Source of the DNA: Octopus vulgaris
Lineage: Eukaryota
Direction of reading: 5' to 3'
DNA: 64,000 bases
Assembly (NCBI GenBank): GCA_951406725.2
Contig: OX597828.1
Coordinates: forward strand, 73,408,001-73,472,000
Under the pieces are notes generated by a model, which was not told the origin of the DNA, made no database searches, and was given only the letters and a program-made list of their open reading frames with translations. A program made the translations under genes and the position numbers. This document shows positions 1 to 60,992 of the stretch, one piece after another; positions within the stretch are counted from its first letter, which is position 1, and each line of letters opens with the position of its first letter.

Positions 1-2113
<2,113 letters not shown>

Positions 2114-2339
2114 TAGTGCAATATTTCTGCAGGTTCTCCAGTTTGTGATCTCAAATATCGCCAAGACCAACTTTGCTCATGAATCAGTGACGTTCGATAA
2201 AATATAATATCAATCAATTACTAGCATCAATGGTTTCATCTGAGACTGCTCTCTTAAACATTGCTGGCCTCGTGCCTAAATCAGAAAACACTTATTCATC
2301 TTCTGTTTCTTCTTCACTATCGTCTTCTTCTCAAAACAT

Positions 2340-2443
2340 TACGACGGGCGTCTTTCGAATTCCGTCTGCCAAATCTACTCACAAGGTTTTGTTCTGCCCG
2401 AGGCTATAGTACAAGACACTTGCCCAAGATGCCACGCGGTGCC
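2340..2443 (-). mobile_element. Fragment of SINE family A
   Basis: Matches the reverse complement of the 5' half of 23866-24325. Confidence 0.75.
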
Positions 2444-2444
2444 A

Positions 2445-2596
2445 CGTTTTGTATCTATTTTTCACCCGATGAGATACATCTGCACCGCCGGATGCTCCTG
2501 AACCAGTTGCTGCGTGTGCCACCCGTGAGGAATAGATTCTAGATGTGTCGTGATTAACATTAGATTCTCATATATTCTATATCCCGTCTTTCATTT

Positions 2597-2598
<2 letters not shown>
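2445..2598 (+). mobile_element. PLE-type tail fragment, same family as 5670-5840, with GAAAC/stem III deleted
   Basis: tcacccga..catctgcacc.ccggatgctcctga.ccagttg shared with 5684-5731; ends in (TA)n. Confidence 0.65.
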
Positions 2599-2630
<32 letters not shown>

Positions 2631-2633
<3 letters not shown>

Positions 2634-4067
2634 CCGTCCGATCTCACTCACCTCACATATCATCAAGGTATTTGAGAGGGTGGTGAGATCTCGAATAACC
2701 CAATTTCTGGAAAGCAACAGACGGCTGATCTCCAACCAACATGGGTTCCGTAATGGAAGGGACTGCCTAACGCAGCTCCTGCATCACTTTGATGACATCT
2801 TGAGAGCTTTGGGAGAGGGCTCCAACACCGATGTCATCTACCTTGATTTCAGTAAGGCCTTCGACAGGGTCGATCACAAGATCCTATTGAAAAAACTATC
2901 CAACATTGGTGTCTCTGGAAAGTTACTGAAATGGATCAAGTGTTTCCTGACAGACAGATCTCAACATGTTGTAGTTGAAGGGGTAAAATCAAGCCCAGCC
3001 AAAGTCAGTAGTGGCGTTCCGCAAGGCACTGTGCTGGGCCCACTTCTTTTCATCATTTACATTAATGACATTAATGACATCATCAAGCACAGCAACATAA
3101 AAATTTTTGCAGATGATTCCAAGCTACAGAAGGTCATAAATGAGGCGAGTGACCAGATCTACTGGCTGTTATCCAATGGGCAGAAAAAAACAATATGCTG
3201 CTGAACGAGGATAAATTTGAGTTAATCCACTTTGGAAAAGAGGATGCCCTGAAACTCCCATACTCCCTTCCTTCAGGTGAAACTCTCGCGGCGTCCAACA
3301 ACATCAGAGACTTGGGAGTAATTGTGGACAACAACATAAGTTGGGCCACTCATATAAACACCAAAGTTGACATGGCCCGCAGAATGTGTTCCTGGATTCT
3401 CAGAACTTTCCAGTCGAGAGATATCCACACCATTATCCTTCTCTTCTCCACTTTTGCCCGACCCCACCTTGAATACTGTTGTCCACTGTGGTCTCCCCAC
3501 ACAATACAAGGTATCATAAAAGTTGAAGCACCTCAAAGGGCAATCACAAAAAAGATAGATGGCATGACAGGCCTCGACTATTGGGGTCGACTAGAAAAGC
3601 TAAAACTTTATTCTCTCCAACGTCGTCGTGAGCGCTACATCATCTGCATGATGTGGAAAATATTCCATCAGCATTGCCCAAATGATGTTGGCATCACCTT
3701 TAGGGTACATCCAAGGCTTGGGCCCCGTGCCATCCGCCCAAAACAAAAATCGCACTCTCATCTCATAACAACAATATGGCACAATTATTTCACCTCAATT
3801 GGCCCCGCTCTCTTTAACATTACACCAAAACACATTAAAACAGAAACTGACCCTATAGGGTTCAAGAAGTCTTTGGACAGATTCTTTCAAGAAATCCCGG
3901 ATAAACCCCCTACACCCGGATATGTCTCTGTAAACAATAACTCTCTACTTGAGTGGGCCATAGTGCCCAAATTCTGACTTGAAAGACTTCACCAGGTGGT
4001 GCTATTAAGTTAGACATGGCCTGGGCCAATAATGGCCGAAACCTATCAAAGTATCAAAGTATCAAAG
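2631..4067 (+). mobile_element. CR1-group LINE, 5'-truncated, frameshifted RT, inserted in (TA)n
   Basis: RPISLTS, QHGFR, YLDFSKAFD, SGVPQGTVLGPLLF, FADD, RDLGV, RPHLEY; frameshift near 3150; 3' tail (TATCAAAG)x3 at 4044-4067, an octamer tail typical of CR1. Confidence 0.88.
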
Positions 4068-6646: not shown

Positions 6647-7881
6647 TATCAAGTAAACAACGTTTTGAACCATAAAGAATCTGCATTTTTTAAGCATTTT
6701 TTCCCAATCGACTGATAACTCAGACAGAGTCTTGCCCAAATGCATTACTAAATTGACATTGACAATTTTTTTTACTGTTGTTACAATCATCTGAAATGGT
6801 TCTGTCAAAGCGAGATAATCGGGCTATTTTGCTGTTCAACTACAAATAAGGACGTAAAGCAGCTGAAACTGCTTGCGATATCAACAAAACTTTTGTTGAA
6901 GAAATGACCAGTGAGTGGTCAGCTCGAAAAGGATTTAAACGATTTCGCAGTGGAGACTTGAGCTTTGAAGATCGTGATTGTAGTGGAAGCCCATCTTTCA
7001 TCGATGACGGTCAATTACAGACTGTCGTTGAGAAAGATCCACGTAAACTACTCGATAACTGGCAAAAGAAATTGAAGTTAGCCAGAAAACTGCCCGCAAC
7101 CATTTGCATGCGATCGGAAAATCAAAAAAGCTCGGCAAATGGGTACCACACGATTTGAATGAAAATCAGAAAATGCGCAGATATGAAATTTGCTCGTCGT
7201 TTCTCCGTAAACAGATCGATCCATTTCTCGACTGTATTGTAACTTGCGATGAAAAGTGGATTCTGTACAATAATAAAAAACGTTCTTCACAGTGGTTGGA
7301 CCAAAATGAAGCATCGAAAACCTTCTCTAAACCCGAGCTCTTCAAGAAAAAGGTTCCGGTGACTGTTTGGGAGTGTACTGCCGGACTCATCCACTATAAC
7401 TTCTTAAAACACAGAAAAACCATTACCGCAGAAACATATTGCCATGAAATGGCCACAATGAATGAAAAACTGCTACTCCTCCATCACAGATTGTTCAGCA
7501 GAAGAGGGCCATGACAATGCTCGACCACACGTTTCACCAATGATGCTCTAGAAGTTGAGGGAACTTAACTACGAAATTCCTCGCCACCCAGCTTATTCCC
7601 CAGACCTTTCTCCTACCGACTACCACTTTTTCACACACGTCGATGGTTTCCCGCAGGAGAAGGAGTTCAAAAATTAAACCGATGCTGAAAGCTCATTCAA
7701 AGAGTTCCTCAGTTCCAGAACTCCAGATTCGTATGTTACCGGAACAATCGTATAACTTGTTGGCAAAAATATTTTGATTGCAATGGTAATTACTTTGAGG
7801 AATAAAGTTTCCACATTGATGAAATATATTGTGATGAATTTCATGTTTCAAAACGTTGCTTACTTTTTACTCAACATGATA
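6647..7881 (+). mobile_element. mariner (DD34D-type) transposon, decayed
   Basis: WVPHDL, IVTCDEKW, HDNARPH, HPAYSPDLSPTDY across frameshifts and stops; terminal aagtaaacaacgttttgaa / ttcaaaacgttgcttactt inverted match. Confidence 0.92.
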
Positions 7882-11067: not shown

Positions 11068-12560
11068 TATGATTAGAATCGAAGGGCCTTAGAGTCAACC
11101 TAGCTAAAACCAAAGTCCTAATAAGTAGGAAGGTAGACAATCCACAAATGTCTTCAGTTAGATGGCCCTGCTCGATCTGTAGAAAAGGCGTAGTTAGAAA
11201 CTCTATAAGATGTACCCAGTGTAAGCTATGGACACATAAGAGGTGCAGCAATATCAAAGGAAGGCTAACTGGGAAGATAGTTTTTGTATGTGGCAGATAC
11301 TCAGGTGCAATAAACACTGAAAATCTGCAGAAAACAACTTCCGTCACTTTCCGGGGGGAAAAACTAGAAGTAGTTGATAACTTCCGTTACCTAGGTGACC
11401 AAGTCAGTAGCGGGGGTGGGTGTGCTGAAAGTGTAACTGCTAGAGTAAGAATAGCCTGGGCAAAGTTCAGGGAGCTCTTACCTCTGCTGGTGACTAAAGG
11501 CCTCTCGCTCAGAGTAAAAGGCAGACTGTATGATGCATGTGTACGAACAGCCATGCTACATGGCAGTGAAACATGGGCCGTGACTGCTGAGGACATGCGT
11601 AAGGTCACGAGGAATGAAGCCAGTATGCTCTGATGGATGTGTAATGTCAGTGTACATACTCGACAGAGTGTAAGTACTTTGAAAGAAATGTTGGACTTAA
11701 GAAGCATCAGCTGTGGTGTGCAAGAGAGACGATTGCGCTGGTATGGTCATGTGGCGAGAATGGATGAAGATAGGTGTGTGAAAAAGTGTCAATCATTAGC
11801 AGTTGAGTGAACCCGTGAAAGAAGTAGACCCATGAAAACCTGGGACGAGGTGGTGAAGCACGACCTTCGAACTTTAGGTCTCACCGAGGCAATGACTAGC
11901 GACCGAGTTCTATGGAAATATGCCGTGCGTGAAAAGACCAGGCAGGACAAGTGAATCCATCCCAGTCAGCCCACTTATGCATGCCTTTTCCTCCCTTGGA
12001 CACACGAAGACCTGCTGAGGCAAGCGAAGTCGAAATCGAACCTCATCCGACGACAGGCACCCATGCCAACCTCCCTTCATTGGACATAAACTCTGCTTGC
12101 GAAGACCTGTTGGGACAAGTGAAATCGGAATCGAAATTGAACCAATCCTATGACTGGCACCCGGCAATTGCCAGGACCGCTGGACTGACTCCTGTGCAGG
12201 TGGCAAGTAAAGAAACACCGTTTCGACCCTGTGCTTGAAGAAATCCATTGAGTCAAGTACACCAACATCAAAAATCAATGAAAACTGCAATTGTGATCCC
12301 TGTGCCGGTGGCACGTAAAAAAACACCATCCGAACGTGGCCGATGCCAGCGTCGCCTTGACTGGCTTCCGTACCGGTGGCACGTAAAAAGCACCCACTAC
12401 ACTCACGGAGTGGTTAGCGTTAGGAAGGGAATCCAGCTGTAGAAGCACTTCCAGATCAGACTGGAGCCCGATGCAGCCTCCTGGCTTCCCAGATCCCCGG
12501 TCGAACCGTCCAACCCATGCTAGCATGGAGAACGGACGTTAAACGATGATGATGATGATG
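11068..12560 (+). mobile_element. RTE-clade LINE, 5'-truncated, (GAT)n tail
   Basis: KGLRVNLAKTKV, FRYLG, RVRIAWAKFREL, MLHGSETW, RLRWYGHVARM; premature stops; 3' end ggaagggaatccagctgtag...gttaaac(gat)n. Confidence 0.9.
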
Positions 12561-26029: not shown

Positions 26030-27658
26030 CGGTGGCGGCCAAAATGTTCAGAACGGCATTGTTTTCGTCAGAAAAGTAGATATAATTTTTTATCAAAGTT
26101 GTTTTATATTCTATAATTTTAACAGACAATAAATACAATATTATTTGTTATTGCATGAGTTTTTGGTTTAATTTGAGAGGATAATACAAAAGTTATGGAT
26201 GATTTAGTGATTTACTGCAAAACCCATGGCGGCGAAAATGATCAGAACGGTTGCTTTTACTCCGTGTTTTAGTATAATTAACCGGCGAACTCTAATGTTT
26301 TGAATTTATTTATGTGACGGTTCGTTTACTAAACATAAGTAAGAATATTTGCAGTGTACTTTGTTAATATAATGCTACTTACTCCGTTACAAATTCGTCA
26401 GCAGATTATTAAGCTTCGAAGGAAGGATAATTTAAGTATTGGATCTATTGCAAAGATTGTTAACAAGTCAAAAAGCGTTGTACACGGTATTCTTAAGGTC
26501 TACGATGATTGTGGTTCGTGTGAAGCAAGAAGGTTTACAGGTAAGCCAAGAAAAACGACCAAGAGAGAAGATCGTGCTATGGTAAAGTTGGTTAAAAAGG
26601 ACATATTTAAAACTGCTGCTGCTGTTTCTCGGAAAATGAGCATTGTATTGAAGAAAACTTTATCTCGAAAAACTGTGTCTCATCGTTTAGTTGAACATGA
26701 TCTACAAGCAAGAGCACCTGCAGTGAAGCCACTGATCAGCTCCAAGAATAAAAAGTGTCGTCTTAACTTTGCAACCGAACATGTGTTGTGGTCTCAAGAA
26801 AAATGGCAAACGGTGCATTTCAGTGATGAATCTAAGTTTATGTTATTTGGCTCAGATGGGAAAAGGTACGTTCGTCGAAGAGTAGGTGAAAAATTTTCGC
26901 CTAAATGCCTTAAGACTAGTGTTAAATTCGGGGGAGGAAGTGTCATGGTTTGGGGGATGATATCTGGGGATGGTATGGGCCCTTTGGTGCGATTACATGG
27001 AAAGGTAAATGCAAGAGTTTATAAACAACTTGTAAAAGATCATGTCTTGCCTGTGCTGAGGAATTCAACTAAGCGACCACCCATATTCATGCAGGACAAT
27101 GCCCCATGTCACAAGGCTAAGGTGGTCATGAACTTCCTCAAGGCTGAAAAGGTTATTGTTATGGATTGGCCTGCTCAAAGCACAGATCTCAATCCTATTG
27201 AAAATGCATGGAATATTCTAGGAGAACGTTCGAAAGCCAGAAATCCTAAAACAACTGAGCAATTACGCAATGCCCTTCAGGAAGAATGGAATTAGATCAC
27301 CCAACAAGAAATTGAAAATTTAATTTCCTCATGCAGTCGAAGAAGTCAGAGTGTGATTGAAGCTAAAGGGCTTCACACTAAATATTAAATAATTCCAGTA
27401 TTCCTTGTCATTTTTTATTATTTTGTTATTTTTTCAACCGTTCTGATCATTTTGGCCGCCATAAGTTTTGCAGTAAATCACTAAATCATCCATAACTTTT
27501 GTATTATCCTCTCAAATTACACCAAAATCTCAGACAATAACAAATAATATTGTATTTATTGTCTGTCAAAATTATAGAAGATAAAACTACTTTGATAAAT
27601 AGTTATACTCACTTTTCTGACGAAAACAATGCTGTTCTGAACATTTTGGCCGCAACTG
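26030..27658 (+). mobile_element. Full-length Tc1 transposon with ~225-bp IR/DR terminal repeats and TA target duplication
   Basis: TA|cggtggcggccaaaatgttcagaac ... gttctgaacattttggccgcaactg|TA; inner direct repeats at ~26228-26253 and ~27435-27462. Confidence 0.96.
26372..27388 (+). pseudogene. Tc1 DD34E transposase with a single premature stop (TAG 27293-27295)
   Basis: GKPRK (GRPR-like), FSDESKF, QDNAPCH, 34 residues to the E of DLNPIE; frame continues ITQQEIENLISSCSRR...KGLHTKY*. Confidence 0.93.
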
Positions 27659-57521: not shown

Positions 57522-57572
<51 letters not shown>

Positions 57573-57676
57573 GGAGTAAACACATAAATGTGAAACAAGG
57601 TGGTAAAAAAAGAGTACTCAAATACCAGTGGTAGAGTAATATGCTTTATTTAAAGCAGCAGAAAATTCAGCAATAT

Positions 57677-57714
57677 CTGTTACTCTGAGTTTCTCGTTGC
57701 CATTCATCAGACAG
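57677..57714 (-). ncRNA. Hammerhead ribozyme motif, minus arm
   Basis: Reverse complement reads ctgt-CTGATGA-atg gcaa cga-GAAAC tcaga GTA-acag. Confidence 0.7.
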
Positions 57715-57729
57715 TTTTTGCTAGAAAAA

Positions 57730-57767
57730 CTGTCTGATGAACGGCAACGAGAAACTCAGAGTAACAG
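57730..57767 (+). ncRNA. Hammerhead ribozyme motif, plus arm
   Basis: ctgt-CTGATGA(57734)-acg gcaa cga-GAAAC tcaga GTA-acag. Confidence 0.75.
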
Positions 57768-57860
57768 ATTTTGTTGAATTCTCTGCTGCTTTAAATAAAG
57801 TATATATATATATATATATAACAAAACAGTGGGTGGTGTTTCAACGCAGGAGAAAATATT

Positions 57861-60891: not shown

Positions 60892-60923
<32 letters not shown>

Positions 60924-60924
60924 G

Positions 60925-60992
60925 CGAAACAAGGTGGGGAAATATAGTGCTCAAATACGGGAGGTAGAGTAATATGCATTATTAATAAAATA
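60925..60992 (-). mobile_element. PLE tail remnant, family of 57571-57650
   Basis: gaaacaaggtgg..aaa.a.agt.ctcaaatac...ggtagagtaatatgc.ttatt beside (TA)n. Confidence 0.75.

What the first reader, a model, noticed from the sequence alone, without database searches (positions are those of the whole stretch)
57644..57800. 157-bp hairpin encoding a complete hammerhead on each strand
Seen: 76-bp arms, 5-nt spacer, 4 mismatches; each strand reads ctgt-CTGATGA-a(c/t)ggcaacga-GAAAC-tcaga-GTA-acag, arranged divergently from the spacer and embedded in (TA)n. Both arms share the imperfect stem II base, consistent with snap-back copying of one template. Established: PLEs form inverted pseudo-LTRs, and ribozymes in both polarities on a rod-like RNA typify viroid-like replicons. 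Inference: a minimal ambisense-ribozyme module transcribable in either direction, in which the hairpin competes with ribozyme folding. It may be a tiny mobile unit or just an insertion by-product.
Basis: partly seen in the sequence, partly recalled or inferred. Interest (0 to 1): 0.75.

Follow-up and report, generated by a model that had tools for sequence, protein, structure and literature searches.

The report
Smallest Penelope retroelement insertion, twin hammerheads
This hairpin is one of more than 700 back-to-back double copies of the ribozyme-bearing end of a Penelope-type jumping gene, likely made anew at each insertion from two short DNA copies of the element's RNA rather than being a viroid-like or self-moving unit.

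Summary
The hairpin is real: 76-bp arms, 5-nt spacer, 4 mismatches, one hammerhead core per strand. The unit is larger than reported (57570-57800): one arm carries an extra 74-bp tail, and both ends sit in (TA)n. Both arms are the pseudo-LTR of a 3,352-bp autonomous Penelope-like element with Hydra-clade motifs (727-aa RT plus GIY-YIG). Its insertions are typically inverted pairs of 5'-truncated arms, one ending at +138 and one at +71. The hairpin is the shortest class (716 genome-wide, plus 408 in sister subfamilies). Junctions vary (34 strings in 51 copies), a subfamily marker is the same on both arms in 75 of 75, and either arm can reach further, so hairpins are likely rebuilt at each insertion from two cDNAs, not copied whole or made by snap-back of one cDNA. 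Arms stop sharply near -16/-17, likely the RNA's 5' end. The ribozyme is the dimer-type minimal form and is predicted not to fold in an RNA holding both arms. The structure is known in kind; this scan noted similar hairpins before on other DNA. The new part is the copy-level evidence on how such ends form.

The parts
57570..57800 (.). Whole insertion: two divergent, 5'-truncated copies of the parent's pseudo-LTR
   Evidence: Same two ends in the 30 loci; arms align to parent L032 with 4 substitutions plus a 2-nt insertion (long) and 2 substitutions (short)
57570..57726 (-). Long arm, from -16 to +138 relative to the first C of the ribozyme core; includes the tail
57725..57800 (+). Short arm, from -9 to the second stereotyped end (+66, +71 counting TA microhomology); no tail
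57570..57643 (-). Tail: the stretch between the two stereotyped 3' ends, inferred to lie between two reverse-transcription start sites
   Evidence: Only on the long arm in the paired insertions; meaning inferred from PMC11167929
57720..57726 (.). Junction of the two arms with a 2-nt (AA) microhomology; this exact junction string occurs 48 times in G000
57730..57767 (+). Minimal type I hammerhead motif; predicted cut after 57763; stem II closed by A.A
   Evidence: activity not tested
57677..57714 (-). Minimal type I hammerhead motif; predicted cut between 57681 and 57680; stem II has a private C>T change at a CpG
   Evidence: activity not tested
57525..57569 (.). (TA)n target microsatellite, left part
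57801..57820 (.). (TA)n target microsatellite, right part

Best explanation
The hairpin is the shortest insertion class of an autonomous Penelope-like retroelement in this genome, and is likely built anew at each insertion when two cDNAs, primed on the two strands of a cut (TA)n site, run off the 5' end of the element's RNA and are joined. Shown: both arms are the parent's pseudo-LTR; one ends at +138 and one at +71; both come from one source haplotype; each has its own 5' truncation; joins use 0-4 nt of microhomology or short templated inserts; arms pile up at -13 to -17. Inferred (from in vitro work on an anole element): the endonuclease nicks both strands and the RT starts at two internal RNA sites. 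Inferred, about 0.6: the -16/-17 edge is the RNA's 5' end (an initiator-like CCATTCT lies there), so an ordinary transcript primed at its first pseudo-LTR gives only this 230-bp product, while long copies need tandem or circular templates. The two hammerheads are passengers; the copy is likely a dead end.
For: Parent: 3,352-bp unit with a 727-aa ORF and the arm as its repeat; RT and GIY-YIG-type motifs and Hydra-clade motifs RWK, DKT, CxCx5C, CxxC, CxH. Of 67 loci around the first 100 exact ribozyme matches, read by eye: 27 pairs with both arms short, 18 with both long, 2 intermediate, 0 with one arm at the edge and the other long (about 22 expected if independent); 18 unpaired or interrupted; 2 merged as duplicates. 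716 short hairpins. 34 junction strings in 51 position-listed copies; tailless arm reaches further in 23, tailed arm in 16, equal in 12. T/A marker identical on both arms in 75 of 75 scorable, 4 unscorable; the four commonest junctions each occur in both subfamilies. All three hairpin haplotypes also occur in long copies. 2,334 arms reach -15 but 1,618 reach -19. Sister subfamilies give 408 more hairpins whose listed junctions stop at the homologous place. 4 of 80 long arms end in CCGGT-CTA, the parent's leader sequence. Two internal RT starts bounding the tail, extension of both strands, and no need for ribozyme cleavage are reported in PMC11167929.
Against: No RNA end was seen: only contigs were available. 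The edge also coincides with the base of the predicted extended stem I and lies next to an acceptor-like TTCTAG, so an RT stop or a trimmed end is possible. The edge is not absolute: two intermediate pairs, and three closely spaced pairs past -19 in the listing. None of 27 longer-than-unit copies with a visible 5' end stops at -13 to -19 of the upstream repeat, although some would be expected if RNAs starting there were also primed one unit downstream; 5 of 27 stop at +61 to +68, unexplained. The anole element belongs to another clade, and its RT starts at sites not homologous to the target, whereas both ends here show TA-like microhomology. Whether one or two RNA molecules serve the two arms is not resolved. 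Pfam and PDB sequences gave no match for the ORF, so its identity rests on motifs.
Confidence: 0.85

Rival explanations
1. One-arm non-autonomous element: existing hairpins are transcribed outward from their centre into about 155-nt RNAs, which the parent's protein reinserts, rebuilding the palindrome each cycle.
For: Would also give variable junctions, matching markers on both arms and both-short pairs. An internal promoter downstream of the start site is reported for Drosophila Penelope (PMC2377424). The T haplotype is somewhat commoner among position-listed hairpins (17 of 51, counted) than among long arms (10 of 53 scorable).
Against: No hairpin-only haplotype among three seen. Few hairpins keep the initiator-like site (9 of 51 reach -17 or beyond). 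They lack all sequence downstream of the tail, which the anole protein needs. CCGGT-CTA ends point to the parent's leader.
Confidence: 0.08
2. One reading: an ambisense double-ribozyme module copied or replicated as a whole, viroid-like.
For: A ribozyme core on each strand, a rod-like fold, hundreds of near-identical copies; the 30 nearest loci look like one fixed family.
Against: The fixed look came from picking by similarity: the window's junction occurs 48 times against 716 hairpins. Ribozyme fold probability about 1e-51 in a two-arm RNA. Each polarity has one dimer-type ribozyme only. 214 hairpins are centred inside the ribozyme. No tandem arrays of the hairpin among the loci read. Arm-asymmetric changes shared by copies are few and mostly cross junction types.
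Confidence: 0.03
3. Self-priming (snap-back) of a single cDNA or of an antisense template makes the second arm, as proposed for rotifer Penelope elements.
For: Perfect palindromic junctions at CTAG are common (11 of 80 hairpins); markers match on both arms; proposed in PMC3846280.
Against: A copy of one cDNA cannot hold more than its template, yet the tailless arm reaches further 5' in 23 of 51 hairpins and in long pairs such as L033, L073, L090, L098, while the other arm alone holds the tail.
Confidence: 0.04

Closest known systems
Inverted 5'-truncated pseudo-LTR with optional tail of endonuclease-bearing Penelope-like elements (PMC8557442, PMC3846280, PMC2377424; passages read)
   Same: Inverted truncated copy joined at the 5' end, tail on one side only, palindrome or microhomology at the junction, microsatellite target.
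   Different: Both copies are cut down to the pseudo-LTR alone, hundreds of times, at one sharp edge; the tail is about 70 bp, not 30-40 bp.
Hydra clade of Penelope-like elements (PMC8557442 section 11)
   Same: C-terminal nuclease, RWK, DKT, CxCx5C, CxxC, CxH, hammerhead, (TA)n insertion.
   Different: Unit is 3.35 kb with a 1-kb 3' UTR (described families generally under 3 kb); hundreds of young copies; placement by tree not done.
Minimal dimer-type hammerheads of metazoan Penelope-like elements (PMC4209133)
   Same: Type I, short self-complementary helix III, predicted to pair as a dimer; dual motifs on opposite strands 100-700 bp apart already noted there as truncated elements.
   Different: Helix II is only 2-3 bp with a GNRA loop, and the young subfamily has A.A where sister subfamilies mostly have A-U; the two motifs are about 24 bp apart.
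Non-LTR retrozymes (PMC7229834 passages; bioRxiv 10.64898/2026.07.22.740005 part 1 of 5)
   Same: Small, non-coding, hammerhead-bearing, derived from a Penelope-like pseudo-LTR.
   Different: Retrozymes are head-to-tail tandems whose two same-sense ribozymes release a circle; this is an inverted pair with one ribozyme per polarity.
Viroid-like RNAs with ribozymes in both polarities (recalled, not from a call)
   Same: Rod-like fold, a ribozyme motif on each strand.
   Different: Here the two motifs are exact complements that mask each other, and the DNA is a retroelement insertion.

Membership tests
Penelope-like element inverted pseudo-LTR insertion | Sequence is the terminal repeat of an RT + GIY-YIG element | tested here: met
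Penelope-like element inverted pseudo-LTR insertion | Inverted, 5'-truncated copy joined at the 5' end | tested here: met
   47 paired insertions among 67 loci
Penelope-like element inverted pseudo-LTR insertion | Tail on one end only | tested here: met
   +138 versus +71 ends
Hydra clade (parent) | RWK, DKT, CxCx5C linker, CxxC and CxH motifs, C-terminal nuclease | tested here: met
Hydra clade (parent) | Hammerhead present and (TA)n insertion | tested here: met
Hydra clade (parent) | N-terminal GxKF/Y motif not conserved | tested here: inconclusive
   A GNKY string lies at residue 67; no alignment to reference families made
Hydra clade (parent) | Groups with Hydra families in an RT tree | not tested
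   No reference proteins fetched
Minimal type I hammerhead | Core CUGANGA, GAAA, UH triplet and helices I-III | tested here: met
   86% of cells paired against 32-44% for slid controls in 12 sequences; no compensatory change on both sides
Minimal type I hammerhead | 10.1-11.1 base pair | tested here: not met
   A.A in both window arms; A-U in 7 of 12 aligned rows, all from sister subfamilies
Minimal type I hammerhead | Self-cleavage (as dimer or with protein) | not testable with these tools
   Two same-sense copies co-fold into the double hammerhead, -28.2 against -26.0 kcal/mol for two monomers; prediction only
Non-LTR retrozyme | Head-to-tail tandem units each with a hammerhead | tested here: not met
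   Inverted single pairs in the loci read
Non-LTR retrozyme or viroid-like RNA | Circular RNA, cleavage in each polarity | not testable with these tools
   Contigs only; folding argues against cis activity
Non-autonomous element copied as a unit (MITE/SINE-like) | One internal structure inherited by descent | tested here: not met
   34 junctions in 51 copies; junction classes cross subfamilies

The most novel reading that the evidence does not exclude
The 1,100-plus hairpins are the run-off product of the element's ordinary transcript: they map its RNA 5' end to the base of the ribozyme's stem I and show in a genome that Penelope-type inverted ends arise from two cDNAs started at two internal sites on sense RNA, not from self-priming, and that long copies need tandem or circular templates. 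A bolder version, in which hairpins themselves fire one-arm RNAs that are reinserted, is not excluded (about 0.08).
Probability: 0.5. Interest if true: 0.6.

Novelty: new member of a known kind. Interest (0 to 1): 0.4.

Why it matters
As an object it is an ordinary remnant. As a population it bears on an open question: how Penelope-like elements make their tandem and inverted ends is called unresolved in PMC8557442, and self-priming on an antisense template was the earlier proposal (PMC3846280). A young family with intact ORFs, two fixed 3' ends and one sharp 5' edge gives exact predictions for 5' RACE and an in vitro assay. Thousands of such inverted pairs would also form long double-stranded RNA when read through, a known substrate for A-to-I editing (PMC5625713 makes this point for a palindromic frog repeat); not tested here.

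Tried and rejected
Rfam: no family at gathering score in the window; matches at E up to 10 are generic hairpin families below their cut-offs, no hammerhead. Pfam and PDB sequence searches with the parent ORF: 0 hits. Sequencing runs: no RNA holder listed on record; contigs of 7 coded runs (6 guessed RNA) lie on the element and the parent but cannot show strand, ends or which copy; no joint that would mark an intron ending before the ribozyme was listed, which does not exclude one. The excess of T>C over A>G places is not used: alleles and other copies mimic editing. Fewer changes in the ribozyme core (3 of 67 against 13 expected) is not used: copies were picked by exact or near match to the core. 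The idea that +61 to +68 stops mark one lap on a circular RNA failed: only 3 of those 5 copies end at +71, against 19 of 29 overall. One search was a poorly aimed pattern and hit unrelated repeats. One search used a misregistered structure and is replaced. The first impression of one fixed family was rejected as an effect of picking by similarity. Eight literature searches found no paper on this stereotyped short class or on a twin-cDNA origin of the inverted ends; the library lacks most subscription papers, and bioRxiv supplements were closed, so a prior description may exist.

Full report
Observation. The arms (57644-57719, 57725-57800), 5-nt spacer and 4 mismatches are as described. The fold is far beyond chance (z = -23, 0 of 200 shuffles). 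A hammerhead core begins at 57734 on + and 57710 on -. The unit is larger than reported: the left arm continues for 74 bp to 57570, and only then meets (TA)n; the right arm meets (TA)n at 57801. Positions below count from the first C of the core (0).

It is a repeat. A search of G000 (2.8 Gb, 227 contigs) gave 1,210 candidates; all 40 scored were near full-length at 94-100%, and the 30 fetched had the same two ends in (TA)n. The exact 34-mer core occurs 3,674 times, control 0. Many matches form divergent pairs at spacings from 9 bp to over 5 kb, and some are tandem at about 3.35 kb.

The parent. Those loci hold a 3,352-bp unit: the arm, a 727-aa ORF, a 1-kb 3' UTR, and the arm again. The ORF has RT motifs (DIIDFYPS, MGAYDG, YRDD), a C-terminal GVVY...YTG nuclease, and RWK, DKT, CxCx5C, CxxC and CxH, the features given for the Hydra clade of Penelope-like elements, with hammerheads and (TA)n insertion (PMC8557442 section 11). 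Pfam and PDB gave no hit, and no tree was built, so clade membership rests on motifs. The window's arms differ from the parent's repeat by 4 substitutions plus a 2-nt insertion and by 2 substitutions.

Anatomy of insertions. I mapped 67 loci around the first 100 exact matches (odd cases read; classes counted by eye). 47 are inverted pairs, with few exceptions one arm ending at +138 and the other at +71: 27 with both arms short (none past -24), 18 with both long (170 bp to more than one unit), 2 intermediate. None pairs an arm at the short edge with a long arm, where independence predicts about 22. 18 loci are unpaired or interrupted and 2 were merged as duplicates. The window's hairpin is thus the shortest class of the family's normal product. 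Genome-wide, 716 hairpins have both cores starting within 30 bp of linker, 214 shorter ones are centred inside the ribozyme (by eye 14 of the 50 listed on the stem III palindrome), and sister subfamilies add 408.

Copied whole or rebuilt? One search scored 80 hairpins (10 duplicate loci left out; five listed hairpins with internal deletions were missed by the matcher; one ambiguous row dropped later, leaving 79). The 28 picked by similarity show 4 junctions; the 51 listed by position show 34. The window's junction occurs 48 times. A T/A subfamily marker is the same on both arms in 75 of 75 scorable copies, the four commonest junctions occur in both subfamilies, and mirror-image junctions both occur. 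Changes on one arm only are mostly private or cross junction types. All three haplotypes of the hairpins also occur in long copies. So the palindrome is rebuilt at insertion from one source haplotype.

One cDNA or two? The tailless arm reaches further 5' in 23 of 51 hairpins, the tailed arm in 16, equal in 12, and the same holds in long pairs. Each arm can hold sequence the other lacks, which a fold-back copy of one cDNA cannot give. It fits PMC11167929 (parts 1-2 of 4 read): an anole element nicks and extends both target strands, starts at two internal RNA sites that bound the tail, needs RNA downstream of them, and does not need ribozyme cleavage. Transfer of that mechanism to this clade is inference; the ends here show TA-like microhomology, which that study did not find.

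The 5' edge. 34 of 51 hairpins reach -14 to -17 and 2 reach -18 or -19 (the pattern cannot list longer ones). Independently, 2,334 arms reach -15 but only 1,618 reach -19. Listed junctions of sister subfamilies stop at the homologous place despite other sequence. An initiator-like CCATTCT (consensus recalled) has its A at -17, and Drosophila Penelope starts inside its pseudo-LTR from an internal promoter (PMC2377424 passages). I infer, at about 0.6, that this is the RNA's 5' end and that hairpins are run-off copies from the first pseudo-LTR of the transcript; 4 of 80 long arms end with three letters of the parent's leader. Against: the edge also marks the base of the predicted stem I; a few close pairs pass -19; and 0 of 27 longer-than-unit copies stop there, while 5 stop at +61 to +68 and 1 at the predicted cut site.

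The ribozymes. Helices I-III pair in 86% of cells over 12 sequences, with no two-sided change. Helix III is 3 bp and self-complementary; two same-sense copies co-fold into the double hammerhead, the dimer type that showed no cleavage as a monomer in PMC4209133 (parts 1-2 of 4 read). That paper already notes dual motifs on opposite strands 100-700 bp apart as likely truncated elements. The young subfamily has A.A at 10.1-11.1 where most sister rows have A-U. In an RNA holding both arms the ribozyme fold costs 71-74 kcal/mol; in single arms 9-10. By eye, 10 of the 50 hairpins listed could have an arm starting at the cut site, but microhomology explains them equally; a hint only.

RNA. No run is on record as RNA; contigs lie on the element and the parent but show no strand or end. 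Expression, cleavage and circles remain untested.

Verdict. Known in kind: inverted pseudo-LTR with one-sided tail (PMC8557442 passages). It is not a retrozyme (tandem units required; PMC7229834 passages; bioRxiv 10.64898/2026.07.22.740005 part 1 of 5) and works unlike a viroid-like RNA. Two earlier notes of this scan describe similar hairpins. Eight searches found no account of the stereotyped short class or of its two-cDNA origin, within a library that lacks many papers. Interest 0.4, for the mechanism that the copies make testable.

Noticed in passing
window 60918-60983: Tail-only fragment of an older related subfamily, 82% identical to the tail of the finding, beside (TA)n.
   Followed up: partly
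L158, L160, L170, L174, L182 (about position 1465): 5 of 27 longer-than-unit copies have their 5' end at +61 to +68 of the upstream repeat, at the AATAAA and the short-arm end; unexplained; a one-lap circle model was not supported.
   Followed up: partly
L156:1431: One longer-than-unit copy starts at the predicted ribozyme cut site.
   Followed up: no
L032:297-7898: A 7.6-kb palindrome of two partial tandems, with one open 727-aa ORF and one frameshifted.
   Followed up: partly
L140-L154: Sister subfamilies carry a CCGACGA core (U4 to C) and mostly keep the A-U pair at the base of stem II; the young subfamily has the standard core but A.A.
   Followed up: partly
L088, L114, L136, L138 junctions: Short inserts copied from neighbouring sequence at the arm junction, resembling templated end-joining or RT jumps (resemblance recalled).
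   Followed up: no
L041/L042 and L103: Copies duplicated with their flanks in inverted orientation, so some counts include segmental duplicates.
   Followed up: partly
window 857-3977, 7059-7514, 11073-11633, 26339-27295: Open frames that look like LINE reverse transcriptase pieces and Tc1/mariner transposases, judged from memory of motifs; the last is a 318-aa frame.
   Followed up: no
window 9848 (-) and 10171 (+): Two further CTGATGA...GAAAC strings in a local inverted duplication; spacing does not fit a compact hammerhead.
   Followed up: no
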